64,000 nucleotides of DNA, from assembly GCF_009914755.1 (NCBI RefSeq), contig NC_060934.1; one strand, 5' to 3'. Positions within the stretch are counted from its first letter, which is position 1. The number at the start of each line of letters is the position of its first letter. The position numbers and the translations under genes were made by a program. Below are positions 6,130-64,000 of this stretch, in pieces. The stretch comes from the human T2T-CHM13v2.0 reference genome, Homo sapiens. The notes beneath the pieces were generated by a model that was given only the letters and a program-made list of their open reading frames with translations, did not search any database and was not told the DNA's origin.

Positions 6130-6228
6130 CATATACAAAGTGGTGTGTGCATGTATGTGTGTGTGTATATATACACACATGTATATATGAGAAGTATATA
6201 TAGGACCACTATATATATACCACTTTTA

Positions 6229-6275
<47 letters not shown>

Positions 6276-8279
6276 ACTTTTAGTGTATATATATATATAT
6301 ATATATACCACTTTTAGTATATATATATATATATATATACCACTTTTAGTATATATATATATACCACTTTTAGTATATATATATATACCACTTTTAGTAT
6401 ATATGTGTGTGTGTATATATATATATACACCACTTTTAGTGTATATATATATACCACTTTTAGTGCATATATATATGTATACCACTTTTAGTGTGTGTAT
6501 ATATATATATATACCACTTTTAGTGTGTGTATATATATATATATATACCACTTTTAGTGTATATATATATATACCACTTTTAGTGTGTATATATATATAC
6601 CACTTTTAGTGTGTATATATATATATATACATATACCACTTTTAGTGTGTATATATATATACATATACCACTTTTAGTGTATATATATACATATACCACT
6701 TTTAGTGTATATATATATACCACTTTTAGTGTATATATATATATATATACCACTTTTAGTGTATATATATATATATACCACTTTTAGTGTATATATATAT
6801 ATACCACTTTTAGTGTATATATATATATATATACCACTTTTAGTGTATATATATATATATACCACTTTTAGTGTATATATATATATATACCACTTTTAGT
6901 GTATATATATATATATATACCACTTTTAGTGTATATATATATATATATACCACTTTTAGTGTATATATATATATACCACTTTTAGTGTATATATATATAT
7001 ACCACTTTTAGTGTATATATATATATATACCACTTTTAGTGTATATATATATATACCACTTTTAGTGTATATATATATATACCACTTTTAGTGTATATAT
7101 ATATATATATACCACTTTTAGTGTATATATATATGCCACTTTTAGTGTGTATATATATATATATACATATACCACTTTTAGTGTATATATATACATATAC
7201 CACTTTTAGTGTATATATATATATATATATACCACTTTTAGTGTATATATATATATATATATACCACTTTTAGAGTATATATATATATATATATATATAC
7301 CACTTTTAGTGTATATATATATATACCACTTTTAGTGTATATATATATATACCACTTTTAGTGGTATATATATATATACCACTTTTAGTGGTATATATAT
7401 ATATACCACTTTTAGTGGTATATATATATATATACCACTTTTAGTGTATATATATATATACCACTTTTAGTGTATATATATATATACCACTTTTAGTGTA
7501 TATATATATATACCACTTTTAGTGTATATATATATATATATACCACTTTTAGTGTATATATATATACCACTTTTAGTGTATATATATATATATATACCAC
7601 TTTTAGTGTATATATATATATATACCACTTTTAGTGTATATATATATATATATATACCACTTTTAGTGTATATATATATATATATACCACTTTTAGTGGT
7701 ATATATATATATATATACCACTTTTAGTGGTATATATATATATATACACCACTTTTAGTGGTATATATATATATATATACCACTTTTAGTGTATATATAT
7801 ATATATACCACTTTTAGTGTGTATATATATATATATACACCACTTTTAGTGTGTATATATATATATACACCACTTTTAGTGTATATATATATATATATAC
7901 ACACACACCACTTTTAATGTATATATATATACACATACACACACACACAGTGCTTTTTAGTATATACTATATATATATAGTGGTGTGTGTGTATGTATAT
8001 ATATATATATGGTGGTATATATATATATATATATGGTGGTATATATATATATATATATGGTGGTATATATATATATATGGTGGTATATATATATATGGTG
8101 GTATATATATATATATATATGGTGGTATATATATATATATGGTGGTATATATATATATGGTGGTATATATATATATATATGGTGGTATATATATATATAT
8201 ATATGGTGGTATATATATATATATATGGTGGTATATATATATATATATATATGGTGGTATATATATATATATATATGGT

Positions 8280-8316
<37 letters not shown>

Positions 8317-8341
8317 GTATATATATATAGTGGTCCTATAT
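6130..8341. repeat. Compound AT-rich minisatellite: [CCACTTTTAGTG(TA)n] array (roughly 60 units), then a [GGTGG(TA)n] array (about 13 units)
   Basis: Directly visible; unit length varies with the (TA)n spacer; source of all YI-repeat ORFs in the track. Confidence 0.98.
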
Positions 8342-45798: not shown

Positions 45799-47089
45799 AA
45801 AGAAATGGTTGTTTAAAAACTTGTATGAAACTTGGTGCTTTGGTGGGGGGTATATATTTGTTTACTTTAACAATAATCACTGCCAAAAATTAATGCGTCA
45901 CAATGGCATAATAATTATGAGTTAAAAGAATCATACCACCTAAACATATTCACTTAGAAAAAAATCAAAATGAAATAGGTTAGCATTTAGAATACTCGTA
46001 ACATTGAGCCACTCAAATAAAATTTCTAAAGGTAATGACAAGATTTCTATACATTTATCCCAGATGAAGCTATAATAAATAGGAAACCAATGAATCCAGG
46101 TACTATCTAAGTATGCCAATCTGAAAACACACTTAGGCATATTTCAACAAATACTTTAATGCAGTATCTGTTTTCCAATAATAAATGAAAAGAACAGCAA
46201 AGAAAACCATCAAGAATTTATATTTAAGTGTAATTTTTCTTAATTTTCAATTGTTCAGAGTGAAAAAGTAATAACCATTCTCAATGTAAAGAAATAGCCA
46301 ACTAGTAAATTAGACTTCAAATTTTACCAAAAAAAGCAAAATGTTACTAAACTCCTAGAGAATTAAGAGTAATGAAGATATTAAAAGGATTTAGCTATAA
46401 CAGTCCTATAATGTTTTTTAAAAGCTACTTAATACTTTAAAAAGTCTATAATGACAATGTATTTTTCCAATAGTAAGTTGAATAGGAATCCACATTCCTA
46501 TTTAGCTTAAAATGCCTCTGGACTTCCTTCTAAATATAGATCTAATATTTGAACATCAAAATAGTAAATACAGTCTTCAAATATTTAAAAAGGAAACTCC
46601 AATTACACTTCTTTGATTAGAACTGTGAATTTTTTTAAATAGAAGTCTAATAATACTGTAGTCTTTAGGCAACTATTAATTTAGAATGTTTTACTTTGGG
46701 TGGGACTTCAGACCATTCTTTCAGCCAAGTGTTTTTCTTTTCTCTAAGCTACAAAAACCACTTCATGACAATTACATCACTATAGTCTGGTGATTTTCTA
46801 AGTTTCATTCCAAACTGGCCAGATGTGAAATGCAATGTGCTGTGATGCAGATGCATTGAAAACACCAACAATGCCAAATGATTTCAGGCTTTTGGTAAAA
46901 ATTATTCTCCAGAAGCTCACCCAACAAGCTTGCAAAGTGAATCTCATTTTTCATTATTTCCGCTTTGCAGGGTAGAGATGCTTACTAAACCAAGAGAGCC
47001 GCTTTTGGAGGAAGACGGGAGTCAGGGAATGAAGGGAGGGGGCAACTTGATATCACGAGCTATGTTTAAAATGGAAAACCAGCACTTAC

Positions 47090-47241
47090 CCTCTCTCTTA
47101 GGACACACACTCCAACAGCATCCATGGCACCTGCATATCAGTATTTTTGAACTGCCTTGAGTTTTAGTCCACAAAATGGCAACATGAGTAAGAGCCAGAC
47201 AGGAAGCATAATAAGCAATGGCCAATGCCAAGTTCACTTAC
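47090..47241 (-). other. Candidate recursive-splicing exon (RS-exon), 152 nt, non-coding
   Basis: Minus strand: tttaaacctctgcttttccttttgtag|GTAAGTG at the start and GAGG|gtaagtg at the end; stops in all three frames. Confidence 0.6.
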
Positions 47242-47899
47242 CTACAAAAGGAAAAGCAGAGGTTTAAATCTCTCTAATCATGAAGGCACAATTACCTCTT
47301 CACATCTCTACTAATTAGCTTTGACTTAAAGCAGATTATGTGACAAAGAAAAAGACAAATATAACTGTGTGGCCTTTAATAACACTGCTTGAAAATAGAA
47401 GGTCCCTTCCCCCACCTACAATCTATAAATTCTTTGACAGATACAAGTTAATTAGATGCAGAAGTAGAATATTTTCTTTATGGTGAGTTCATAAACAATT
47501 GATTGCTCTTCAGTTTGTTGAAGACAATAAAACAGGTGATTGAACCAGGAATCGCTTAAGATCTTGAGGATGTTTCCCAGGAAGTGTCTAATGATTGTTG
47601 CTGGATCAGTTGCAACTCTTTCTTTACAGGACTAAATGGTGCTAGTTATTGCTGGGAGTTTGCCAATGTAGTTCTAGGGCAACTGGCAGCTAAAAAAGCC
47701 GTAAATAGAGCAGCAAATACCATCACTGTTCACTACCCTGCAGTTTTCTGCCCTTAAACACTTTGGTGTGCACATCCTCAAAAGTATATTTTAAGACAAA
47801 CATTCCTCTTGTCTTGAGACATAGGAAATATGCAAAATAGTGAAGCACCAAGGACATATAACTAGCAAAAAAAAAAGTCAACATAATCTCCTCTAACTC

Positions 47900-48100
47900 T
47901 AGCACAACTAGTATGCATGAGCTCACATATTGTGTCAAATACCAAAGCATTTTACATGTACAAATTCACTTAATATTTTAAACAATTATTTGAGGCATAA
48001 ACTAGTAGTATCCTCATTTTTTTTGTAAACAAGGAAGAAAAAGAAGAGTTAAGAAACTTGCTGAAAGCCACATGTTCAAGAATGGCAAAGCTAGAATAAA
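47900..48100 (-). mobile_element. MIR remnant
   Basis: gagctcacatattgtgtcaaatacc...cattttacatg...tatcctcatttt...gttaagaaacttgctgaaagccaca. Confidence 0.65.
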
Positions 48101-49149
48101 GATATGTGTGCTTTGTGGGATTCATATAATGTCTGTATTTTGTGTATTATTGTCAACTCAGATTTCATAGATTCATGAGTTAAGACATAAAGTTCTTTCC
48201 CTCATGGGATTCATTTTGACATGTTTTTGAAAGACTTGAGGAAGAGTCTGCAATTGTGCACTTCAAAAAAATCAAAATGATAACAGTATGGTTTTATAGC
48301 TATTTTCTCCAAGATAGTGAATATTATTCCCTTAGAACAAACTATTAACAATCAGTCTTTGGTAGAAATAAAACGCTTCAGTGGATCAAAGTTTGCAAAG
48401 TATCAAATTATTATTTGTCCTTAGATGAATTCTCTAAAACCAGTCCCACTAAAGTTTCTTTAAGGATTGTTCATAGGACTGATACCTGATATATAAAATA
48501 TGAGATAATACACATAACATAACCTTCTATAGTCAATGGCATCAGACCTCCTTTCAAAGCATCCCCACATGGAAGCAGTGTACTCACTCCCCTGTAGTTA
48601 CCATCTCTCATTTTTTAGAGCTGTCTTCAGACATTATATGAATCCCACAAGGCCATGGTCTCTTTATAACATTTTGATTTTGACTTAAAAACCATATTAT
48701 TTAGTGGAAGTAGTCCTTCATCTAGTATCAAATAACTTTTTATTTTTGAAAAGTCAAATCTCCCCTTACAAAATATTTGCAATCATTAAGGTTATTGCAT
48801 AGACACATAGGTAAGTGATAGGTAGACAGAGCTTTCATATATATATCTACATATCAAGGCAAGTATCCCTTGAATACAAATAGTACTTTCTATCGTGAAG
48901 ACTCTGAAGGGCAAAGTATTCCTTTGAATGTTCTGGCACATGCGTGGTTTTCTCCCTCCACTAATAAACTTATCTTTGGGGCCAATCATATAAGGGATCT
49001 GATTCAAAAGTCATTGATTACCCACCATGTGCCAAGTACAATACTAAGCATTTCACCTATGTCAGCTGATTTTAGTTTAGCAAATATCCTCTTTAAAATA
49101 TAGTGTAATTCTTATTTTACAGATAAACAGATTTAGAAATGTAGCGTCA

Positions 49150-49530
<381 letters not shown>

Positions 49531-51719
49531 CTACACTGTAAGACATGCTTTGGGCTGCCTGCTTCCATTTGACTGCATGACTATCTCTGCTTTATAAGGA
49601 AAAAGTGATATATGCATCTACAGAGTGAGAAAACATTTTTTTAAGGAGAAAATAGCATTCATCAGGTCTAGTTAACTTCTGTTTCTTATGACTATATTTT
49701 AGATCTGTGTACCCCATGTTATTGACTGCTCTGGATATCACTTGAACACCGGTATGAAATTAAGCAGGCATATTCATGAGCCAATTTTATTTCAAATAGA
49801 AATGGTCACAATTGTTTAATCCTTATTTATCTCCTTTCTACTCTCAATTTGTCAGCAAGAGAATGTTGGCCAATAAAAAACAGGTCTGCAATGGGTATTT
49901 TGTTACTATGACTTACTATGACTTTAACTTTTAGCCGTGAAAGGATAAAAGAGGAATATGACAAGAAAATGAATGCGACTACAAAACTGAAAAGGCAGCT
50001 CCAAATAATTGTAGAATTGTGAATTCTACAAGATTAAAAAGTAACTATTGTGTTGGAAGAGCAGTAGTACAATCTGTGCTTTGCCCTAACAAAGTTCCAT
50101 CTCTGAATTACATAATAAAAGCTATTGGCTAGAGATAAAATAAATACTTAATGTGTCTCACAGAGGGTATCCTTAATAAAAGGATTATTTTATGCAAGTA
50201 GCTCTTCATGTGTCTCAGAATATTATTTTCAAAGCATTCACAGATGACTGCAAGTGGCCTCCAGCCTCTTATGACACACATTAAGAGACAAGACCTCAAC
50301 TCTCTATGGAATACTGAAAGGATAAGCTCAGTTCCACCAGTACCAGAAGGAACTCCTGCTTCCCCCACTTTTCTCGCACTATCAGCAGGACAATGGGGAA
50401 AGGCATTTTTTTTTTTTTTTTAAGGAGAGGAGACTTTGCAAATTGTGCAGTACACAGAATATTTTCCTATCTAAAGAGAGATTCAAATGCCTCTGGTAAT
50501 GACAGAATTTCAGAGACATTTAAAGGTCTCAATTCTTGATGTAAACATTGAGTCAAGATTGAAATAGCTATCCTGAAATTATCTAGGTTTTGGAAACTTT
50601 AGCAGCTCTCCACAGAGCACAGAGTGTCCTTCTTCACTGTGGCAACACTCAGGGAATCCCCTTTCCTGGACAAGAGGCACACATCACATGTTTCCAGGAA
50701 CTTTCGTCTTTTCCATCAATTAAAAAAAAGTACAAGGTGCAGACACCAGTCTGGGTCTTATCTTGTATAGGAAAAGTTCATTTTCATCTCCCAGAAGTCA
50801 GGGAAGTAAATAAAACAAAACAAAAACCAAAACCATAAAAACAGAATTGAATAGGGTCATTTTGCATCAATGGTCTTAGTGCAGTCACTAAAAACCAACA
50901 CTCTCATGTCTTCAGCTGCTTTTACCCCCTGCATCAAACAATGCAAATAATCCTTGAAAAGCCTTTTTAAACTAAAGAATAAAGAATTATAAAAGGAAAT
51001 GTTCATCCAATTAGTGAAAAAGCACTACTGATTTTAAGTGTTTAAGATACCACCAATTGGGAAAGTATCATGATGTACATGACAGGGGTTATTTTTCATA
51101 CTGAGGAAATAGAAAAAAGATCTTTCTGCAGGAGAAAAGAAAATTCTTAAGCAAAATCAATTATTCACTGCAGTGCAAGGAAAACGATTTTGCTGCTGGT
51201 CCAGGATGCTATCAATTTCCTGGCTTCAGACATTCTTACTCTCTTCATTTAATGGGAAGATGATTCTTTCAAAACCTTATGGCAATCTGGAAAAATTGTC
51301 CTTGAGGGAATAAGATTTTTTAGAATATTACTGACTATGGTTCTGATGCAGAACAAAGAAATATTAGCCATAAGAAAACTACTTCTGTGTTATCATTTGG
51401 ATTAAATATATGCTAATGAACAAGTAGAATTAAGAGCTGCAGGAACGGTTAGAATATAGCAGTAATGGTGGCCTCTATTTCAGGAGACCCAGGGAATTCC
51501 TGCAAGGTAAACTCCAAGTAGAAATAACAAGGAAGAGCATTATTTTCCATAATTTACGTGATTCATATTTATTTTCATTAAAAACTTGCACTTAGGAACT
51601 GCTGAATCATGAACAACTTTAATGTTAAAAACACAGCTGTGTCTCAATGAGGAAAAATAAAAAATTGACAGAAATCTGAATTTGTTTCAAGAGGTTCATA
51701 CCTTTATTAGTGTTTTTCC

Positions 51720-51852
51720 TCTCTAAACTACGTGTCTTCCTCCCTCATGAGATTAATAATTGAGGAGAGGAATTCATTCATCTTTGTATTTCTAGCATCT
51801 AAAATAGTGATTGATCCATAGGTTATGTTCAATATTGCTCAGTAAATGAATA
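51720..51852 (+). mobile_element. L2 3' end
   Basis: attcatctttgtatttctagcatctaaaatagtg...cataggttatgttcaata...gtaaatgaat. Confidence 0.65.
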
Positions 51853-52454
51853 AAGACACATCTAGGTGTGAGTAGCTATGGTGGAAACAAAGATTATAAG
51901 ATGTGGTCATTACTGTCAAGGTTAACAAAGTAATTGGGGATATTTAAACATAAAAATCCAACTACCAGTCAAGATTCTACTTTATATGAGGGTGTTTGTT
52001 CCAATGGTGTTACTTACTATCCATGGGGGTTCAGACTAATGAGATACCACTCTAGGTTGGCAGTGAGAACCAGGGAGACTTTTTTGAGGAAGTGAAACTC
52101 AAAAAGAAGTGAAACATTGAAGGGAGTTGAGTCTTAATATAAGGGAAGTTTGGTTAGAATAGGTGGTTAGTGTGAGTAGGAAAAAAAGAAAAGGTTGGTA
52201 AAATATGAGTCCAAATTTGAAAGTCTTATGGCTTCAATTTGACAACAAATCAATCTCTCCCTAAATATACTGTACTGTTTGCCCTCAACATACTGTGAAA
52301 AATTAGAGACCCTATCTTTTTAATATCTTTTAAAGTAATGCATAGCATATGGAAGGGGAAACATGTTTAACAGACATTCTTATGCATAGCACTATCTCGG
52401 GTAGTCATAAGAAACAAGTAATTATTAATGAATTAAAATAGCCTTACATATAAA

Positions 52455-52921
52455 CAATTGAACCCTGAGCAACATGCGTTTGCACGGAGTGAGTCCACTT
52501 ATACACGGACCTTTTTCAATAAAAGTTACACTGAGTGGGTCTGCCTCTCCTTCCCCTTCCTCCACCTCAGCCTTTGCTGCCCTTGAGACAGCAAGACCAA
52601 CCCTTCCTCTTCCTCCTCAGCCTATTCAACCTGAAGACGAGGATGAAGATCTTTATAATTATCTACTTCCTCTCAATGAATAGTAAATGTTTCCCTCCTT
52701 ATAATTTTCTTAACCTTTTCTGTAGCTTCCTTTATTATAAGAACACAGTATATAAAACGTATGCAAAATATGTGTTAGTTGACTGTTTACATTATCAGTA
52801 AGGCTGCCCGTCAACAGTAGGCTATTAGTAGTTAAGTTTTGGGGAAGTCAAATTATACACAAGAGTTTTTACTGTGCAGGGGGTCAGTGCCCCGGCCCCC
52901 TCTCTGTTCAAGGGGCAACTG
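52455..52921 (+). mobile_element. Tigger2a/MER28-like MITE
   Basis: Termini caattgaaccctgagcaaca ... tgttcaaggggcaactg; internal cctcctcagcctattcaacctgaagacgaggatgaagatcttta. Confidence 0.88.
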
Positions 52922-54479
52922 ATCAGCAGATGGATAAAATAAAAATTCCAAAAAGAAGCAAACCCTATCAGGAGTGATATTTAAAATGTAATAGCCAGTA
53001 AAGTTTAGGTATTAAGCAATCAGAATGGCCCAGGTGAACTGGGCTTAGAGTTCACCTGGTTGATTATTGGCTCCAGTTCTAACATCTCCTTTCTCAAAAT
53101 TACCTATTATCAGCTTTCTGTTCTTTACATTAATCTTGCAGTTGGATCCCCCCATATACATCCTTTAATCCCTTCAAATAAGCTCTTTTCTATTTGAGTT
53201 TTCTTGAGTGAGTTTCTCTTCTTTGAAATCTAAAACAAATAGGAAAAACACAAAGCAAATTGATGGCCTATATATATCCCTATCCCTCACTGCATGTCAA
53301 CGTTATTCTGTGACTGTCCTTTCAGGGGCCTTTCTTCTTCGAGATTGGCAATAAAATGTTCTCCTAATGAAGAAAATAGAACCGCTAAAGGATAAAAAAC
53401 TAGTGAATATGTTTCCAAGTTGCTTCTATGTCAACTTATCTGACTCAAAAGTGATTTAATAAAAATAAACACATAAAAGTGTATCAAATAAGCTGTTTCT
53501 CTCATATTTCATATAAAATGACAAATTTTATTGTAGAGAGTTGTGTCTTTGGTTGATAACTAACTAGATCTCTAGGCTCTAAATAAAACTGATAATTTTA
53601 AAAAATATACTATTGCCAAAATTTACATACACTATTGCCATCGGATAAATAAATGTGAATATGTTGCACTTAAAGCTAAATAGGCTTAATAATATGTAGG
53701 AATACTAGAGCTATACTATAAGAAGTTCTGATCAGGAAACTATATAGGTAATGTGTTATATTAGACATTTTGGGGTGATGCAGGTACAGATACTTCCAAA
53801 AGGCATCTGATATCATAGGCAAACAAGGGCAGAAATTATTAAATCAACTTAGCAAATACTTCCCAGTGTTCTTATTACTTAGGGAATGAACTGAGACTGC
53901 AGGAAGCATTGACCATAAGCACTCCCCAGTGGTTCTAGCCCCTGCACATTCAGCAGGGTCTGGGCTGGCCTAGCATGAAATGAAGAACCTCCAGGCAAAA
54001 ATCACAATTTTATAAGAAATGCTATATCCAGAAAGAGGATCTTCATGATTACACAGGAACTTCTCTGGCCTATGAGAAGAAGGGAAATAAGTTTTCAAAA
54101 TAAAGCAGTGATAGACAAGGCCTAGAATAATGATTAGTTAACTTTAATAAAGGGCTTTAATGTAATTATAAATCATTATTAAAATATATGTGCCTGGGAT
54201 TTACTTGAAGCTGTTGTATATTATAGTAGTTAACCAGCAGGGTATTTTAGAGCCACCATCATCTCCTTCAACACCAAGTTCCATCCTTGCTCGAGTGCCA
54301 CCAGGGTTCGTGGTTACAGCCTTGGGACATGAGAAATTGTTATTTCCTCATATTCTACCTTGCTTAGAGTTAGGAATCAAAGAAAGCAGCTAAATAGAGA
54401 AAACCAGAAGCAAACAAACTGACAAACATTAAAAGCTAAAATCATGTCATTATACTAGTAAAAACTATTCATTCCACTG

Positions 54480-54780
54480 GTATCTTTTGGAACCAACTAT
54501 GTACCAGGCCCAGTGCTAAGTGCTGGATAAACACCAAGTAAATGCATTCTCTTATAATCCAGAGCTTGCAATCTAGTAAGGGAGATAGATGACCTCAAGC
54601 AAATAAATCAGTGTGTCACTACCAGTTGTGGTCAATGCTTTGAACAAAATTGACAGGGGCAGGGATAATGTAATAAATAGGGAATTGTGATCCCTATTTA
54701 TAGGGGATAGAATAATGGAGAATGTAGTAGGGACCTACTAAGTGTGGCCAAGGAGGAGGTGAAATTTATGTGAAGGTCAC
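54480..54780 (-). mobile_element. L2 3' remnant
   Basis: actatgtaccaggcccagtgctaagtgctgga...gagcttgcaatctagtaagggaga. Confidence 0.65.
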
Positions 54781-55259
54781 CTCCCTCCAACAGTCATCTG
54801 AGGACTCAATTCCATAACAATGAAGATGTAAATGAAGAACAGTCATAAAATGTTTATAACAGTAGCCCCCAAAAAGAGAAAAAGGTATCAAGAACCTTGG
54901 CTGAAATAGAAGAAAAACCTACTTGTAACACAAATCCATGGGACTGAGGGCACAGGTACTGGGAGCCAGGATCTGTTCTGGGAAATCTCATTTAACAGAC
55001 TTAAAACTACTGACAGTACCCCTGGAAGAGAGAGGGACAGAGTGGTGGGAAAACCACAAGATTGGCATCAGTAGAGCAGCTTCAAGCTTGGTTTTCACTG
55101 TAACGTCCTACTTTAATTAGCCAAGTGTCTAATATTTTGAAAGACTGTAGCAACTTACTCCTGTAGACAAAATAATGAGGCTGCTGTTTTGCCAAATATT
55201 TTCTCACCATCTCTAACCACTCCCATCAGAAAATGGAGGAAAAAAAAATTAGGAGTAGT

Positions 55260-55392
55260 TAGTAGTGAGCTCCTATGATCCCAGTTACCCAGAGGATCAC
55301 TTGAGCCCAGGAATTCAAGGCTGCTATGAACTATGATTGTGCCTGTGAATAGCCACTGCACGCTAGTCTGGGCAACATAGCAAGACCCTACT
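55260..55392 (+). mobile_element. FAM (fossil Alu monomer), partly deleted
   Basis: gaggatcacttgagcccaggaattcaaggctgc...gcctgtgaatagccactgcac...gggcaacatagcaagaccct. Confidence 0.8.
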
Positions 55393-55676
55393 TTGTACAT
55401 TTTTTTTAAAATGCACCAACACTCCAAATATGTAGGTTTAGCTGTCACTAAAGGGATCACAGAGCAGAATTTTCTTTTTCCTAAAGAGAAGGGAGACAAT
55501 GCTCTTCTTAAAACCTCTGTGAAAAATAGCCTCCTTGATCGTTGCAGACTAAGGAAAATACTGTAGAGCCACGTTCCATGGAAAGAGCTTTGGAATGGAG
55601 CTGCTCTGGCTTTGAATCCTGGACCTCAATTTATCATCTCTGGGTGGTCTTGGGCAAGTTATCTGACCCACTCTGA

Positions 55677-55979
<303 letters not shown>

Positions 55980-56040
55980 GATTCTTAGTTTTCTTAGCTA
56001 TGAAACTGGTAGGCTTGTGAAGATGAAATGAGATTACCCA

Positions 56041-56081
56041 TCTATGGCCATACCATCCTGAACATGCTCCATCTCATCTGA
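56041..56081 (+). pseudogene. 3'-truncated (tailless) 5S rRNA retropseudogene
   Basis: tctatggccataccatcctgaacatgctccatctcatctga matches the 5S rRNA 5' end GTCTACGGCCATACCACCCTGAACGCGCCCGATCTCGTCTGA, mostly with CpG-type changes; TSD aaatgagattaccca / aaacgaggttaccca. Confidence 0.9.
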
Positions 56082-56521
56082 AACGAGGTTACCCAGAACA
56101 TGCACCCTTTGTACAATTTGAATTTGGGGCCACGTGTATGTATTTATTACCTGCCCAAAACAGCTAACGAAATAAAAAGACAGAAAAGTAAAAGCTATAA
56201 CTACAAGCCTGGCCAAGTCATAACTTTCTAAAACTCAGTTCTCTCATTTACAAAATCTAGAAATAACCTCTCAGGATTGTTGTGGGGACTCACACAAGAT
56301 GGCACATTTCAAAGTACTTTGTAAACTGTAAAATATAGACCAATATAAGACACTATTATTAAAAAAGAGAGAAAGAGAGAGAGAGAGAGAGACAGAAGTG
56401 CGCTCTGTATAAAACAAGATGACTCTCCCAGGGTAGAGACAAATCAGCCACTGGGGCCTCCCTCCCCAGCAGACAGTAAAGGGTAACTGGGAAGGGAAGG
56501 CACAGGAACCAGATAACCACC

Positions 56522-56700
56522 CCACTGGCTAGCTGTGTAAACTCAGCCAAGTTGCTTAACCTCGCTCTGCTCCTATTATGCATCTCATCATAAACATGAG
56601 AATAATACTACATCTCAGAGAAGTTGTGCAGTTTAAGTGGCATGACTCACTGGCTTAGCAAAGCCCTGAACAGCAGAAATACTGAATAAATGTAGCCAAA
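56522..56700 (+). mobile_element. MIR
   Basis: ccactggctagctgtgtaaactcagccaagttgcttaacctcgctctg...aataatactacatctcagagaagttgtg. Confidence 0.75.
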
Positions 56701-57049
56701 ATACGTTAGCACCACGCTACCCTAGAGGTTGGCATGGCTAAAACTTACTCTAAAGCCTGGGGCAAGAAGGACATCATGGAAGAACTTGTTCCATGCTGCC
56801 AGAAGTTTCTGGTGTTGTCATCCCATAATTTATGTAAAATGCACCTACTTCTTCTATCTTCAGATGACATGGTGCATATCAGCAAATGTCAAAAGAGAAA
56901 AAATAGCAAGCTCCTACTTCCCGGCAGATGAGATGCTCCCAGTGACACGTAGCAGGCCTATACTGTTGCTGCTCTGGCCTCCTTGAGCCACAAGCCCCCT
57001 AACGTTACTACAGGAAGCTGGATTCTTCAGATACCTATGAAAGGCACAC

Positions 57050-57215
57050 ACCAGGTTTTCTCACTCTTAGCCCATCATAAGAATCACCTGGGGTACTTGT
57101 TAAACATCTAGACTCCAGGCTCTACCTCAGAACTCCTGAATCAGAATCTCTAAGAGCCCTGAGAATCTATACCCCAAATGAACCTTAGGATCAGGCCTGT
57201 TTAGGATACAGTGTA
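57050..57215. mobile_element. MER5-type remnant
   Basis: agaatcacctggggtacttgttaaaca...ctacctcagaactcctgaatcagaatctct. Confidence 0.7.
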
Positions 57216-58269
57216 CTCAGAAGCGTAGCTGACTACTAGACACCGATGGTGATTCTTTATCACTTTCCCCTCCCTTCCAACTCCCAATCTCACGGCTTGT
57301 GAAACCATTATCTGCAGATTCATAAACACACATACACACTTACTAATTAACTTTAATGACAGGAAAACTATTTTCACCTGAAGACTACCAAGGGCTTGAA
57401 TACAAATTTTTTTGATGGAAACAGCTTTTAATTATCCAAACCAATATGCAATTCTGGCTTGCGATGCCTGAAGGCATTTTGATAATTCATGACTTACCCA
57501 AACTGATAAAAAGAACCCAGCCATGGCGTTGCTGGGAAGCACTGGGAGGCGTCCCCATCTCTTCCTTGGCTCAGATCCCAGTCTCCTTTCTACCTGGTTT
57601 CCTTCTGCCTTAGGGATGAGCAATGAAGTTATTTCCCCTTTATAATAAAAGCCTTTTCTGTAGATGCTGGAGAGCACAGTAAGAGAATATTACCCTTGCT
57701 TCCTTCCTTGCTGTAGGCTAAAAAGTAGGAAGAATAAAGAAAAAGTAACGTTGCAATATCTATGGAGCTGAGAGGAGCCCCTGGCCTAGACCCAATGCCC
57801 CGGGTGAGACATTAAAGAATGACAAGCTCCAGCAAAGAGGCTGAGAAAGTTGCTTTTGTGGCTTGAGGCACTTACTGGAACACAGACTAGCTCCTCTGTC
57901 TATCCACTCACCAAATATCTCATAGTGTCCTGTATTTAAGACACTAGACAGGTGTCACAGGAAAAATCCATGTTCAGGCAAAATCCCTGCCCTCCAGGAG
58001 CTTATAGCCCAATGCTGGTGGAAATGTTAATCCAAAGGAAGGATAAATGACAATATGTCCCAGAGGTTTGGAGGAGGAAGAAATCATTTTCTGCTAATTG
58101 AACTGCAAAATACCTTGGACACATTTATCTTGCCCCAGTTCCTCATTTTGCCAGTAGAGAAGCTGCCTCTCACTCTAAATTCTGATAACCTAAATAGGTT
58201 ATTGGAGAAGACAAGTGCTTGAAAATGAACTAAGAACAAGCCTCAGCATTCATCCTAGGTTTTCTAATT

Positions 58270-58385
58270 TCAAATAAGTCAACAAATGTATATTCGACAC
58301 CTACTATGCTCTAGGCCCTGTTCTAGATACTGGGGACACTGGGCAAAAAGAATAAATCACTGCCTTCAAAGAGCTTATATTCTCT
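58270..58385 (-). mobile_element. L2 3' end
   Basis: tcaacaaatgtatattcgacacctactatgctctaggccctgttctagatactggggacac...ctgccttcaaagagcttatattct. Confidence 0.75.
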
Positions 58386-58689
58386 TGTTCATTTTATTAC
58401 ACCTGACCACAGTAAGAACCAAGGCATAGAATCATAAAGATAACACTGGGAAATATGGATGACATCAGAGATGATGGTTTGTATATGTGTGCGTATAGGA
58501 TGAGGAAGATGGGTTAGAGGGTTGATCAGTTATTAGATTATTGAAATTTTTGTCATGAAGTGATCAGATATTATGCTCTGATCATGAGTTTCAATTTTAA
58601 CACAAGCAACACAAAGTCAAGTAACTCTATTGTATATTATGGGCCCAAGATTCAAGCTCAGGTCTGTTGATGTAAAATTCCATTTTAGC

Positions 58690-59070
58690 GGTACATATAC
58701 ACATGGAATACTACATAGTCATCAAAAAGAATGAAATCATGTCCTTTGCAGCAACATGGATGCAGCTGAAGGCTGTTATCCCAAGCAAATTAATGCAGAA
58801 ACAGAAAACCAAATTCTGCATGTTCTCATAAGTGCGAGCTAAACATTGGGTATACATGGACACAAAGATGGGAACAATAGAATAGACACTGGGGACGAAG
58901 GAGGGAGGAAATCAAGGGTTGAGAAACTACTTATTGAGTACCATGCTCACTACCTGGGTGATGGGACAATTCGCATCCCAAACCTTAGCATCATGCAATA
59001 TAACCATTAACGAACCTGCACATACACTACCTAAATCTAAAATAAAAGTTGAATTTAAAAAAATAATAAA
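58690..59070 (+). mobile_element. L1 (L1PB/old L1PA-type) 3' end
   Basis: ggtacatatacacatggaatactac...aaagaatgaaatcatgtcctttgcagcaacatggatgcagctg...aacctgcacata...aaaataaaagttg. Confidence 0.9.
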
Positions 59071-61849
59071 TTTTGACCATCTCCGTTCCATTCCAATCCA
59101 TTCATAGGAATGAAAAGAAGTCATGAAATAAGAAACATTTCAAAGGATTAAAATATGGCGATGAAAAAGTTACCTTCTAAGAGGCCTGCTCAGTTTGCAC
59201 ACAATTCCAGTATGCTAACAATCCTTTAATTGAACTTTTGTCTGTATATTCTCCTGACCATCTAGGTCATAAACTTCTCCAGCAAAGGCCCAGTCTTTTC
59301 TATTTTTTGTATTACTCCCTAGAGTACTTACTATGGTGTTTCTGCCCATTGTTGTCACTCAAATCATTTTGATTGGCAAACAGAAATTATTTGTCCTTCT
59401 AAAAACTGTTTGACATGATTCCTTGGCAAAAGTGAAAATCAAAAACAATTTTTACATATTAATAGACCAATTATACACAGTGACATGTTTCGAATTCTTT
59501 GAATTCCTACTTTGCTCAAAAGTCCTAATCATTTTTCCATTTTACAATTTTTGTCTTAGTTTTTTTTTAATTTGATTCATAGACTAGCTCAGCACTCTAT
59601 CTTGAGTACTGTTTCAGCAGCCAACCAGCCATTATAATCTAGAAAATCTGTTATCTCAAAAATAAAAGTAGTTAGAGTTGTCAAGTGTTATCTATTTTGT
59701 CACAACATAAATAAATCATGCCTAGGAGACTAGGTTATTAATTATGGACCTTATTTTATTTACTGTGTATCAGCTTTAAAGAGGTTATTTCTCTTCTTTG
59801 TAGAACATCTATATGTTACATCAGCTGAGTTCTAATTAATCTGCCTTATGAGTCAAGTTGCAACAGTATATTATTTTAAGAATGAATTACATCGTATTGC
59901 AACTAATTTTTTTAAATACCTAGTACAGTTTTCCATCCTTTAAAGGAATATATTATACATTATGTAATGCAAAAAGCTAATGTGTCTATAGCAAAGAAGT
60001 ACTCTACCTAGAAGCTATTAGCTACTTAGGCTCCTGATCAGACTGGGGAAAAAGCATAGTGGTATTAACTGTCTTACAGTTTAAATAAAGCCTGGAGTTC
60101 TGAGCAATGGTTAGTATCTGAGCACAAAATATAATTAGAAAATTCATGACAGGACTGATAAAGTTTATTTGTAATCATGATGAATTACCTTTGTAAGACC
60201 CATAGGTAAAATTAAAGACCAATACAGACAGTAGCTGCAACATTGGATAATGGTGTGGAATTAAGCACCCTAGTCATTTTAATGTTTTACATTTGAAACA
60301 TCATTTGTGGTTTCTTAGAAGCCACTCCAGGGCCCAATTTGAAATAACTTTTTTCCTTTGTAATGTAATTGATCAAAGTTGTGAAAAGGGTTGCCTTAAC
60401 TTAAAGGCCATCCTACCCCAAAAAAGCAATGACAAAATCTCCCATTTTCTAAATCACTTTCAATACATCACTGTCTTCTGGCTGTAGCAGATAATGAAAG
60501 CTACTAAAATATCAACAATGCTTCTACTTTAGAATGGCAGCAAACATAACCTCAGGAATAATTTAAGCATGGAGGGATGGAGGGGAGACTAGGTAGCATT
60601 GCTGCCATTAAGGGACTAAGAATACCTTGGGCAGAGAAGTTTCTTCACTTTGAACACAGTGTGATTAATCAGGGTAGTAAGAAAATGTCAGCTCCAAGGG
60701 ATTTGGAAAATGTGAGCAGTTTTCAGAAATAAACCACATGCCTAAAAATCAATGCAATTCCTTGCAGCTGAGCCCAGCTGAAGGCTATTGTCCTTATCTA
60801 GTTATCAGGAGTTGCTGCCTGCCTCAACCCACAAGCGCCTCCGTTTAGCCAGGTGTTTCCAATTTTATGCTTAGTTTCAATGCTCACGCTGGGGTTGTTT
60901 CCTGCTGACACAGGATGACATAATGGCTCTGACACAAAGGGACTGCTAGGGTTCCATATTGAGACTTTTTTTTTTTTTTCTGTAGCCAATGCATGCTTTT
61001 GGGCCAGATTTCTGCTTGGAACATGGCCCTTTTCTGTCTCCTTTGCTAGATTAAAAAAAATTCCTTCCCTATATCCCAGCTCCTTCCCTATATTCCACAA
61101 TTGTTGCTTGTATAAATCTTTGACCTTCTACCTGGACCCAGGTTTTAGATCTGTACCCATTCTCTAGCTTTGGGCTATCTGAGCTGACACTCTAACCTGC
61201 TGGGTTCCAGATCCTCTGGTCCAGCATAACTGCAAGTTGCTACGTACTTGTCTAGGAGGTTTCTAATCCTATCCACTGGCTGAATTCCTATCCTCTCCTA
61301 AATGGAGATAGTAATATCCATTTTATAATCCTCATAAGGCTTTATAAGGATAATATGAGTTAAAGGATATTTTTAAAGACTAAAATGATGATTCTTCTAT
61401 GAATATGAAACAGACATGTTTCAAAGATTTTATTGAAATCCTTAAATTAATGAGGAAACCAGTAAGACATTACAACCAGTTCAAATAGCAGACACATACA
61501 CGGACAATCTGAAATGCTGAAATGAATTAGAAGACACAAAACCTCTTCTACAAGAAAGATGGGTGGTGTCAATTGAATCTTCATAGATAAAATTTATTTG
61601 CCTATCAGTTTTCTATAGCCTATGTTAAAGATAATGAAAAGAACACACCTCTAGAGAATTAGATAACCAAGAACAGTATACTAGACATCACCTAACGGTC
61701 CATTAAAAAGACATCAAGTAATCTACTTTTGCCCATTTCAGAGTCTTTAACAGCCTTTCCTGGTATATGCAGAAGTAGATTTGTGCCAAAGAATTTTGAG
61801 AATAATATTTATGTACCAAAAGTAGTTCGTCAGAGATACACATTTTTCT

Positions 61850-62402
61850 TTATTTTATTTTATTTTATTATTATTATACTTTAAGTTTTAGGGTACATGT
61901 GCACAATGTGCAGGTTAGTTACATAGGTATACATGTGCCATGTTGGTGTGCTGCACCCATTAACTCATTATTTAGCATTAGGTGTATCTCCTAATGCTAT
62001 CCCTCCCCCCTCCCCCCACCCCACAACAGTCCCCGGAGTGTGATGTTCCCCTTCTTGTGTCCATGTGTTCTCATTGTTCAATTCCCACCTATGAGTGAGA
62101 ACATGCGGTGTTTGGTTTTTTTGTCCTTGCGATAGTTTGCTGAGAATGATGATTTCCAGTTTCATCCATGTCCCTACAAAGGACATGAACTCATCATTTT
62201 TTATGGCTGCATAGTATTCCATGGTGTATATGTGCCACATTTTCTTAATCCAGTCTATTGTTGTTGGACATTTGGGTTGGTTCCAAGTCTTTGCTATTGT
62301 GAATAGTGCTGCAATAAACATACGTGTGCATGTGTCTTTATAGCAGCATGATTTATAGTCCTTTGGGTATATACCCAGTAATGGGATGGCTGGGTCAAAT
62401 GG
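61850..62402 (-). mobile_element. 5'-truncated young primate L1 (L1PA2-L1PA4-like), about 550 bp, with ORF2 C-terminal remnant
   Basis: ORF 61968-62321 reads MFIAALFTIAKTWNQPKCP...WIKKMWHIYTMEYYAAIKNDEFMSF (L1 ORF2 C-terminus, frameshifted near the end); perfect 19-bp TSD cagagatacacatttttct at 61831-61849 and 62403-62421; lacks the L1HS-Ta ACA diagnostic. Confidence 0.96.
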
Positions 62403-62959
62403 CAGAGATACACATTTTTCTACTGATAAAATAAGAGCATGTGGTCATATACACTCTTTGTCACTACCATTAAAAAATAAAAGTTGTTGTAAGATTAAAT
62501 GGGATGCTTACATTCTGAACAATGATACCGGGTAAAAACAACAAGCATCTACATCTGCACACATATGTATAAACATACACTGGTCTATTCAAAAGGTGTA
62601 CAAGCCTTTGGCCAGGTCTTTTCTTGTATTAAATTAAAGGAATGCTCTGGTGCTCTTATACTCACATTCTATTCCTTCTGGCCTCTCCCACTTACTCATT
62701 CCACCACTACCATCTAAGTTATCTCTAGGTCCACTAATGTCCTGTCCTATACTCAGTGGTATAACCAAAGAGTTACAGACTCCTGATAATAAGAATCTCC
62801 TGGACTAAATCAAATCTTGTCTCCAAGAAAAGGTCTTGGGGATTTTAACCAGCCATCCCAGGTAATTCTAATTATCAGGCAAGTCTGAGAAACACTAGGT
62901 TAAGCAGCAACCTGGAACCTGGCTATGAAGAGAGTAATCCACAGAAGAGTATAGACCAT

Positions 62960-63325
62960 TGATACGGTTTGGCTCTGTGTCCCCACCCAAATCTCACTGT
63001 ATAGCTCCCATAAGTCCCACAAGTTGTGGGAGGGACCCAGTGGGAGATGATTAAATCATGAGGGCTGGTCTTTCCCATGCTGTTCTAGTGATAGTGAATG
63101 AATCTCATGAGATCTGATGGTTTTAAAAATGGGAGTTTCTCTGCACAAGCTCTCTCTTTGCCTGCTGCCATCTATGTAAGATGTGACTTGCTCCTCCATG
63201 CCTTCCACCATGATTGTCAGGCCTCCTCAGCCATGTGGAACTGTAAGTCCATTAAACCTCTTTCTTTTGCAAATTGCTCAGTCTCGGGTATGTCTTTACC
63301 AGTAGCATGAAAACAGACTAATACA
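62960..63325 (+). mobile_element. THE1B-like solo LTR (ERVL-MaLR)
   Basis: tgatacggtttggctctgtgtccccacccaaatctc...ccatgtggaactgtaagtccattaaacctct...aaaacagactaataca; 5-bp TSD accat/accac. Confidence 0.93.
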
Positions 63326-64000
63326 ACCACAAAAGCTGCTGACTAAAACCACATGTTTCATCATGCCTGGGGGGTGGCGGATACTGAGATTGGGGTCAAG
63401 TGAACTTGATTTGTCATAAACTCCCACGACGACACATGTACAAGGATGAAAGGGAGCATCATGTGAAAAGCATGAGGAGTCCATGAACCCACAGTTCACT
63501 TGATGAACTGGACCCATGAAGTGAAATATTGTGCAATGTAATCATTGAATACCCTAAGCTGAATCAATAATTCAGCACTGTATTTTGTCAGTTTTTGCTT
63601 ATTCAAATCATTGTGATATTTGATATCAAAACAAATTATTTAAATTAAGTACTTTATTTTCCCTCCTAATAATTTCATCTGACATTAATTTCTTTGTAGA
63701 AATTCCAACCCATAGGACAGTTCTTTCATGGGCAATTGTAGGAGAAACTGGTTAAGTCTAAAACCACAACACAGTTTCCATATGTAAACAGAAGCGTCTC
63801 ATTTTGAGAAAAATCTCAGAAGATTCTATTATAAATATAAACATCCATCTTGAAAAGAGACAGGATTTTTAACATTTTCACTCCCAGAAACCATGTAAAA
63901 ATGTCAAAGCTGATTTTCAATATTAATAGTCACAGCTGTCCTTCAGCATCTCAGAAAATCCATGTAAATGCTCTTTATTGATATGACTATAAGGTATACT

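What the first reader, a model, noticed from the sequence alone, without database searches (positions are those of the whole stretch)
47083..47275. Candidate recursive splice site with a poison RS-exon on the minus strand
Seen: the minus strand reads gatttaaacctctgcttttccttttgtag|GTAAGTG, a strong 3' splice site (no other AG in the preceding ~27 nt, branch-like tttaaac) directly abutting a consensus 5' splice site, with the junction at 47242/47241. A second consensus donor GAGG|gtaagtg lies 152 nt downstream (47090/47089). The enclosed exon has stops in all three frames (G-TAA, GT-AAG-TGA, and TAA at codon 26). Known: this is the architecture described for vertebrate recursive splicing in very long introns (e.g. 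CADM1, CADM2, ANK3, PDE4D, HS6ST3). There, the RS-exon is needed for exon definition, is normally removed through the reconstituted donor, and triggers NMD if included. Inference: this site lets a long host intron be removed stepwise. I cannot name the host gene or tell whether the site is already catalogued.
Basis: partly seen in the sequence, partly recalled or inferred. Interest (0 to 1): 0.85.

Follow-up and report, generated by a model that had tools for sequence, protein, structure and literature searches.

The report
Known ANK3 recursive splice site
This is a real two-in-one splice signal that lets a roughly 300,000-base intron of the human ankyrin-G gene (ANK3) be cut out in two steps, but it has been in the published catalogues since 2015-2018, so it is not new.

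Summary
On the minus strand a 26-nt AG-free, pyrimidine-rich tract ends in AG|GTAAGT at window 47242/47241. A second AGG|GTAAGT donor lies 152 nt downstream (47090/47089). The enclosed exon has stops in all three frames.

The interpretation also holds, but the site is already catalogued. Supplementary tables S1-S3 of Zhang et al. 2018 (PMC6110456) list one ANK3 recursive splice site at hg19 chr10:62268383 (-). It has a MaxEnt 3' splice-site score of 12.46, phastCons 1, RS junction reads and a sawtooth read-density step. I tied that hg19 coordinate to window 47241 through six exon and AGGT anchors in the window's own assembly. A review and two other papers credit an ANK3 RS site to Sibley et al. 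2015.

This is the only one of 1232 minus-strand AGGT sites in the ~337-kb host intron that combines a strong pyrimidine tract with a near-consensus donor.

One nuance: the site lies in introns only of transcripts that start at the two upstream promoters. The MAHAAS... first exon lies 120.6 kb downstream of it.

The 152-nt exon boundary rests on sequence alone. Novelty: already known. Interest: low.

The parts
47263..47270 (-). Putative branch-point region (gatttaaa; A residues at 47263-47265), just downstream of the last upstream AG (47271-47270)
   Evidence: Sequence. The AG-free zone of 26 nt places the branch point here by the usual AG-exclusion logic. This is inference; no branch point was mapped.
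47244..47262 (-). Polypyrimidine tract (cctctgcttttccttttgt)
   Evidence: 17 of the 20 nt before the AG are pyrimidines. The published MaxEnt 3' splice-site score for the mapped hg19 site is 12.46.
47242..47243 (-). Acceptor AG of the recursive splice site (end of the first intron segment)
   Evidence: Maps to hg19 chr10:62268383 of Zhang et al. 2018 S1-S3 through anchors.
47236..47241 (-). GTAAGT, which becomes a 5' splice site once joined to the upstream exon. With the AAG that ends either upstream exon it reads AAG|GTAAGT.
   Evidence: Upstream exon ends ...GGAAAAAAG and ...CTAGAAAG. 9 of 9 consensus positions after joining, against 8 of 9 for the distal donor.
47090..47241 (-). Predicted 152-nt RS-exon. 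Stops in all three frames. In the frame set by the phase-0 upstream exons the stop is codon 26, ending 74 nt before the exon end. 152 is not a multiple of 3.
   Evidence: GC 44% against 37-38% in the 500-nt flanks. Use of this exon was not shown here or in any text I could read.
47083..47089 (-). Distal donor GTAAGTG of the predicted RS-exon (AGG|GTAAGT)
   Evidence: the only GT with >=7/9 consensus matches among the 32 GT in the 520 nt downstream of the RS junction, apart from the RS donor itself.

Best explanation
Window 47242/47241 (minus strand; T2T-CHM13 chr10:61365242/61365241) is the previously described recursive splice site of the long 5' intron of human ANK3.

Transcripts that start at the 5'-most promoter or at the exon encoding MSEEPKEKNAKPAHRKRKGKK first splice their last 5' exon to this AG. 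That step removes 106,676 nt or 63,965 nt respectively (T2T lengths). The join recreates a perfect AAG|GTAAGT donor. That donor is then spliced to the common exon (SDANASYL...) 230,624 nt downstream, so nothing of the site remains in the mRNA.

The 152 nt that follow, closed by a second strong donor, most likely serve as the RS-exon. The RS-exon lets the acceptor be recognised by exon definition. If the distal donor wins instead, the exon is included, brings a stop at its codon 26 and shifts the frame, so the product should be removed by nonsense-mediated decay.

Shown in published data: the junction reads and the sawtooth step. Shown here: the sequence anatomy and the mapping. Inferred: the RS-exon boundary, the competition between the two donors, and NMD.
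For: 1. Anatomy: as set out under the observation check.

2. Published catalogue. Zhang et al. 2018 (PMC6110456; supplementary xlsx files read or searched) list ANK3 chr10:62268383 (-) with 3' splice-site strength 12.46 and phastCons 1.
- Junction reads in forebrain neuron progenitors from the donor at hg19 62332222 (total/unique): 4/4 at 30 min, 91/40 at 60 min, 91/44 at 120 min, 19/15 at steady state.
- Junction reads in H9 cells from the donor at 62374943: 5/5 at steady state.
- Sawtooth table S3: read-density fold changes of 3.57 (H9, stable; p 4e-4) and 4.72, 5.23 and 6.59 (FB at 60 min, 120 min and stable; p 3e-4 to 5e-4).
- It is the only one of the 5-6 putative AGGT sites listed for these introns that appears in S2 and S3.

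3. Mapping hg19 to the window, using distances measured in the window's own assembly.
- Donor after MSEEPKEKNAKPAHRKRKGKK at T2T 61429206: 63,965 nt from the site, against 63,839 in the table.
- Donor after ...GGFGSDYSRSSRK at 61471917: 106,676 against 106,560.
- Common exon starting at 61134617: 230,624 against 228,986.
- Five other tabled AGGT sites fall on AGGT sites in T2T with consistent offsets: 2,043 against 2,044; 10,530 against 10,531; and three sites all at +265.
- In the interval left open by these anchors (window 45868-47368) there are 4 minus-strand AGGT sites. Only 47241 has a pyrimidine tract: 17/20, against 6, 9 and 12 for the others.

4. Attribution. A review states that Sibley et al. 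2015 found highly conserved RS sites in ANK3 (passage). Two papers mention their ANK3 RS blocking experiment (passages). The mouse study says its 19 sites include all ten known mouse RS sites, names ANK3 among RS genes, and has an S1 figure legend that names Ank3.

5. The site fits the published class features: first or second intron, intron >51 kb, AGGTAAGT, pyrimidine-rich 20 nt.
Against: I could not read Sibley et al. 2015 (not held). I also could not read the supplementary PDFs of the mouse paper or the closed bioRxiv tables. So the identity of Sibley's ANK3 site with the Zhang coordinate is inferred from there being only one supported ANK3 site.

No source seen gives the ANK3 RS-exon boundaries.

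The hg19 and T2T distances differ by 127 nt upstream and 1,373 nt downstream of the site, so the mapping rests on anchors plus uniqueness of the motif, not on a base-level liftover.

Conservation was not tested here, because no vertebrate genomes are on hand. It rests on the tabled phastCons value and on the mouse report.

Published blocking of the site did not change ANK3 expression (as reported), and Zhang et al. argue that many human RS introns are also removed in one step (abstract and passages). The site may therefore be used without being required.

The bare octamer occurs at chance frequency.
Confidence: 0.93

Rival explanations
1. It is an ordinary, unannotated cassette or 'poison' exon of ANK3 whose 5' end happens to begin with GTAAGT. 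It is either included or skipped as a unit, and the reconstituted donor is not used in a second splicing step.
For: The 152-nt unit has a strong acceptor and a strong donor and is somewhat more GC-rich than its flanks: 44% against 37-38%. Junction reads to the acceptor would also arise from plain exon inclusion. The mouse study found that 46 of its 84 candidate RS sites were unannotated exons.
Against: A sawtooth step in read density at the site is reported in two cell types. That is expected for stepwise removal and not for a rarely included exon. The joined donor AAG|GTAAGT matches 9/9 consensus positions against 8/9 for the distal donor, which favours removal. [quoted passage not shown] Sibley et al. 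are reported not to detect RS-exons in mRNA unless a 5' splice site is blocked (passage).
Confidence: 0.05
2. It is a chance juxtaposition of splice-like motifs in AT-rich intronic DNA, with no function. The published ANK3 site lies elsewhere in the neighbourhood.
For: AGGTAAGT occurs at chance frequency in the window. Twenty GTAAGT hexamers lie on the minus strand of the window, so a second one within 500 nt has roughly a 15% chance (my arithmetic). The hg19 and T2T distances do not agree exactly.
Against: The interval allowed by six anchors holds no other AGGT with a pyrimidine tract. The tabled site has a 3' splice-site score of 12.46 and phastCons 1. It is the only 1 of 1232 AGGT sites in the whole intron with this composite.
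Confidence: 0.02

Closest known systems
ANK3 recursive splice site of Sibley et al. 2015 (Nature 521:371; not readable here) and Zhang et al. 2018 (PMC6110456, tables S1-S3, hg19 chr10:62268383)
   Same: Same gene, strand and intron, with the same upstream donors and downstream acceptor once mapped. Strong acceptor abutting GTAAGT. I take it to be the same site.
   Different: Nothing in kind. The only differences are assembly coordinates and small length differences between hg19 and T2T-CHM13: +127 nt upstream, and +1,373 and +264/265 nt downstream.
Vertebrate RS sites in CADM1, CADM2, PDE4D, HS6ST3, ROBO2, NTM, OPCML, NCAM1 and MAGI1 (the RS-exon-dependent class)
   Same: AG|GTAAGT with a long pyrimidine tract, in the first or second intron of a long brain-expressed gene, in an intron >51 kb, followed by a short exon-like unit with its own donor (class features from passages; anatomy here).
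   Different: For CADM2 RS1, deletion lowers expression in human neurons (2025 preprint, passages). For ANK3, blocking is reported to have had no effect on expression. The ANK3 site also sits upstream of an internal promoter and first exon, so only some isoforms ever carry it.
Drosophila ratchet points (Ubx and hundreds of long fly introns)
   Same: Acceptor and donor are juxtaposed, and the intron is removed stepwise with no trace left in the mRNA (introduction passages).
   Different: Fly sites were first described as zero-length exons. The vertebrate class, to which this site belongs, relies on a downstream RS-exon for exon definition (review passage).

Membership tests
Vertebrate recursive splice site (RS-exon-dependent class) | AGGT with a strong 3' splice site directly abutting a 5' splice-site motif | tested here: met
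   17/20 pyrimidines, a 26-nt AG-free zone and TAG|GTAAGT. Published MaxEnt score 12.46 for the mapped site. I did not compute MaxEnt myself.
Vertebrate recursive splice site (RS-exon-dependent class) | Lies deep in a very long intron (first or second) of a long gene, on the transcribed strand | tested here: met
   Minus strand, the same as the ANK3 exons. The site is 63,965 or 106,676 nt from the upstream donors and 230,624 nt from the common exon, so the introns are about 294.6 and 337.3 kb.
Vertebrate recursive splice site (RS-exon-dependent class) | A functional 5' splice site is reconstituted after the first step | tested here: met
   By sequence only. Both upstream exons end in AAG, giving AAG|GTAAGT, 9/9 consensus positions.
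Vertebrate recursive splice site (RS-exon-dependent class) | RNA junction reads joining the upstream exon to the site | not testable with these tools
   Published. Zhang 2018 table S2 gives 4, 91, 91 and 19 total reads in FB cells (30, 60, 120 min and steady state) and 5 in H9.
Vertebrate recursive splice site (RS-exon-dependent class) | Sawtooth step of nascent RNA coverage at the site | not testable with these tools
   Published. Zhang 2018 table S3 gives fold changes of 3.57 (H9) and 4.72-6.59 (FB), with permutation p <= 5e-4.
Vertebrate recursive splice site (RS-exon-dependent class) | High conservation of the AGGT across vertebrates | not testable with these tools
   The tabled 100-way phastCons over the four AGGT bases is 1. 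Ank3 is named among mouse RS genes. No vertebrate genomes were available to me.
Vertebrate recursive splice site (RS-exon-dependent class) | Downstream RS-exon closed by its own 5' splice site | tested here: inconclusive
   One strong donor (8/9) lies 152 nt downstream, the only GT of 32 in 520 nt with >=7/9 apart from the RS donor. Its use in RNA was not seen in any text or table I could read.
Poison (NMD-triggering) exon | Inclusion brings an in-frame premature stop more than about 50 nt before a downstream exon junction | tested here: met
   By sequence only. All three located upstream coding exons that can splice to the site or to the common exon end in phase 0. Frame 1 of the exon stops at codon 26, 74 nt before the exon end. 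Decay itself was not tested.

The most novel reading that the evidence does not exclude
The RS site is promoter-specific. It lies between the two upstream ANK3 promoters and the internal first exon that encodes MAHAAS...RKKK, which is 120.6 kb further downstream.

Its stop-bearing RS-exon might act as an isoform-selective gate. It would commit the long upstream-promoter transcripts early, before polymerase crosses the internal promoter, and would poison transcripts that start at cryptic upstream sites and reconstitute a weaker donor. It would leave the MAHAAS-initiated isoform untouched.

If so, variants at this site would change the ratio of ankyrin-G N-terminal isoforms rather than total ANK3. 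That could explain why blocking the site did not change overall expression.
Probability: 0.12. Interest if true: 0.45.

Novelty: already known. Interest (0 to 1): 0.12.

Why it matters
ANK3 (ankyrin-G) is linked to bipolar disorder, autism and intellectual disability, as stated in the mouse RS paper. [quoted passage not shown] Recent work shows that deleting the CADM2 RS site lowers expression in human neurons.

The ANK3 site is therefore a legitimate place to look for non-coding disease variants. As a discovery it adds nothing, because the site, its junction reads and its sawtooth pattern are in print.

What this check adds:
- Exact T2T-CHM13 coordinates.
- Evidence that this is the only such composite in the ~337-kb intron.
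- The observation that only transcripts from the upstream promoters contain it.

Tried and rejected
1. Direct transfer of hg19 coordinates with a single offset failed. The predicted positions of the flanking exons showed no splice sites. I replaced it with anchor searches.

2. A first fingerprint using only the 5,020-nt spacing of two tabled sites gave 3 candidate pairs among 30 AGGT sites, which is about chance. It became informative only when three sites shared the same +265 offset from the common exon.

3. A first filter for the common exon (pyrimidine tract >=15/20 plus a GTRAG donor) missed it. It was found by listing open frames. Likewise the MAHAAS first exon was missed by a GTRAG-donor scan and found when all GT dinucleotides were allowed. 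Its donor is GTATCT.

4. Sibley et al. 2015 could not be read by PMC id or by DOI.

5. Two searches of the paper library for ANK3 with 'recursive splicing' / 'recursive splic' each reported 6 papers and listed 5, and one search with 'RS-exon' found 1. None of the passages read gives the ANK3 RS-exon boundaries.

6. I did not compute MaxEntScan scores (models not on the script machine) or any conservation measure (no vertebrate genomes held).

7. The plus-strand AGGTAAGT at 48809-48816 is antisense to ANK3 and was set aside.

8. One search was an incomplete script that only listed locus lengths.

Full report
**1. Observation**

Read on the minus strand, window 47270-47236 is gatttaaacctctgcttttccttttgtag|gtaagt. 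The G of the AG is at 47242 and the G of the GT at 47241.

- The nearest upstream AG is 26 nt before the acceptor AG, and 17 of the 20 nt before the AG are pyrimidines.
- A second donor, agg|gtaagtg, has its junction at 47090/47089, so the enclosed unit is 152 nt.
- Translation of the three frames shows a stop at codon 26 in frame 1, a stop at the first codon in frame 2 and a stop at the second codon in frame 3.

The 'branch-like' tttaaac is only a loose match to the branch consensus as I recall it. Its A residues do sit 21-23 nt upstream of the acceptor, inside the AG-free zone.

**2. Is it more than chance?**

The octamer alone is not. AGGTAAGT occurs twice in the window on both strands together, against 2.73 +/- 1.52 in shuffles.

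The composite is rare.

- Of 217 minus-strand AGGT sites in the window, 8 have >=16/20 upstream pyrimidines. Only this one of the 8 carries GTAAGT.
- I fetched the rest of the host intron from the window's own assembly and scanned all 337 kb. There are 1232 minus-strand AGGT sites and 5 AGGTAAGT. Exactly one, this site, has >=16/20 pyrimidines and a >=5/6 donor.
- Downstream, the donor at 47089 is the only one of 32 GT dinucleotides in 520 nt (the RS donor aside) with >=7 of 9 consensus matches. It has 8/9.
- With 20 GTAAGT hexamers on the minus strand of the window, a second one within 152 nt has about a 5% chance by my arithmetic. The distal donor is therefore suggestive, not compelling, on sequence alone.
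- The 321-nt stretch around the site is single copy in the assembly.

**3. Host gene and intron**

The hub annotation places the window in ANK3 on the minus strand. I located the flanking exons by translation. Positions are T2T chr10, listed 5' to 3' on the minus strand.

| Feature | T2T position |
|---|---|
| 5'-most coding exon, MASSASSSPAGTEDSAPAQ, donor | 61589992 |
| Exon ending ...GGFGSDYSRSSRK, donor | 61471917 |
| Alternative first exon, MSEEPKEKNAKPAHRKRKGKK, donor | 61429206 |
| The site | 61365242/61365241 |
| Alternative first exon, MAHAASQLKKNRDLEINAEEEPEKKRKHRKRSRDRKKK, donor | 61244673 |
| Common 102-nt exon, [34 protein letters not shown], start | 61134617 |

- All three exons that splice to the common exon end in phase 0.
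- The site divides a 294,589-nt intron (from the MSEEPK exon) into segments of 63,965 and 230,624 nt. From the ...SRSSRK exon the first segment is 106,676 nt.
- The MAHAAS first exon lies 120,568 nt downstream of the site, so transcripts that start there never contain it. From memory only, I believe that peptide is the N-terminus of the canonical giant ankyrin-G isoform. Which RefSeq accession uses which first exon was not tested.

**4. It is already catalogued**

Zhang et al. 2018 (PLoS Genet, PMC6110456) searched human 4sU-DRB time-series data for RS sites. I read passages of the main text. I read part 1 of supplementary file 3 and searched all six xlsx files.

- Table S1 lists five putative AGGT sites in ANK3 intron hg19 chr10:62039397-62332222, and six in 62039397-62374943.
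- One of them, 62268383, has 3' splice-site strength 12.46 and phastCons 1 over the AGGT.
- Only that one appears in S2 (junction reads). In FB cells the total/unique counts from the donor at 62332222 are 4/4, 91/40, 91/44 and 19/15 at 30, 60, 120 min and steady state. In H9 cells there are 5/5 steady-state reads from the donor at 62374943.
- Only that one appears in S3 (sawtooth). Fold changes are 3.57 in H9 and 4.72, 5.23 and 6.59 in FB, with permutation p of 3e-4 to 5e-4.
[quoted passage not shown].
- A review says Sibley et al. found highly conserved RS sites in ANK3, CADM1, OPCML and NCAM1.
- Zhang et al. and a 2025 preprint both recount Sibley's blocking experiment on the human ANK3 RS site.
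- The mouse cortex study names ANK3 among RS genes, and its S1 figure legend names Ank3. It reports that its 19 sites include all ten known mouse RS sites.
- Sibley et al. 2015 itself is not held.

**5. Mapping the published coordinate to the window**

A single hg19-T2T offset did not work, so I used anchors.

| Anchor | T2T distance | hg19 tabled distance |
|---|---|---|
| Site to MSEEPK donor | 63,965 | 63,839 |
| Site to ...SRSSRK donor | 106,676 | 106,560 |
| Site to common exon | 230,624 | 228,986 |

Five other tabled AGGT sites fall on AGGT sites in T2T.

- 62330178 lies 2,043 nt from the MSEEPK donor, against 2,044 tabled.
- 62364412 lies 10,530 nt from the ...SRSSRK donor, against 10,531 tabled.
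- 62149520, 62214458 and 62219478 are all displaced by the same +265 nt from the common exon.

The two one-base differences suggest that the table gives the zero-based position of the G of GT. That is my inference.

The length differences add up: 127 + 1,373 + 264 = 1,764 nt, which equals 294,589 - 292,825. The anchors confine the published site to window 45868-47368. That interval holds four minus-strand AGGT sites, with 12, 9, 17 and 6 of 20 upstream pyrimidines. Only 47241 (17/20, GTAAGT) can carry a 3' splice-site score of 12.46. I therefore take the identity as established short of a formal liftover.

**6. Mechanism**

Shown in published RNA data: the upstream exon is joined to this acceptor, and read density steps up at the site.

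Shown here by sequence: joining either upstream exon (both end in AAG) makes AAG|GTAAGT, 9 of 9 consensus positions. The distal donor AGG|GTAAGT has 8 of 9.

This fits the published competition model, in which the reconstituted donor usually wins and the RS-exon is skipped (passages).

Inferred: the 152 nt act as the RS-exon for exon definition. If included, the exon places a stop 74 nt before its 3' end and shifts the frame, with more than 40 exon junctions downstream according to the hub's exon count, so NMD is expected.

The RS-exon is 44% GC against 37-38% in its flanks. That is a somewhat larger exon-intron contrast than the near-zero contrast Zhang et al. describe for RS-exons in general. 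This is a minor point that I did not pursue.

**7. Limits**

- Use is shown, but need is not. Blocking the ANK3 site did not change expression (as retold). Zhang et al. argue that many human RS introns are also removed by ordinary one-step splicing.
- Conservation was not tested here.
- The RS-exon boundary has no RNA support that I could see.
- Supplements that may settle this were not readable: Sibley's tables, the mouse paper's PDFs, and Tables S2 and S9 of the preprint.

**8. Verdict**

The feature is the known ANK3 recursive splice site. Novelty: already known. Interest: low. The one point that may be worth a follow-up is its promoter specificity relative to the internal MAHAAS first exon.

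Noticed in passing
window 6210-8329: A 2.1-kb AT-rich tandem array (period 26, about 58 copies, 85% matches; a second block of period 24 at 7963-8300). Between the anchors at window -3037 and 47241, T2T is 1,373 nt longer than the hg19 distances in the Zhang tables. A length difference in this array is a plausible source, but that was not tested.
   Followed up: partly
outside the window: T2T chr10:61244673 (window -73327), minus strand: An alternative first coding exon of ANK3 (MAHAAS...RKKK, donor GTATCT) lies 120.6 kb downstream of the RS site, so transcripts started there never contain the site.
   Followed up: partly
outside the window: T2T chr10:61303091 (window -14909), minus strand: A second AG|GTAAGTGA in the same intron, with a weaker pyrimidine tract (14/20). 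It is not among the putative sites that Zhang et al. list for this intron, so it presumably fails their strength or conservation filter.
   Followed up: no
window 22804 and 22431, minus strand: Two AGGT sites with very good pyrimidine tracts (18/20 and 17/20) but poor donors (GTTTTT, GTCTTG). They look like possible cryptic acceptors, not recursive sites.
   Followed up: no
window 48809-48816, plus strand: The only other AGGTAAGT in the window lies on the strand antisense to ANK3.
   Followed up: no
window 47242-64000 and beyond, up to T2T chr10:61429206: T2T is 127 nt longer than the hg19 distance between the RS site and the MSEEPK-exon donor. The place of the difference was not located.
   Followed up: no
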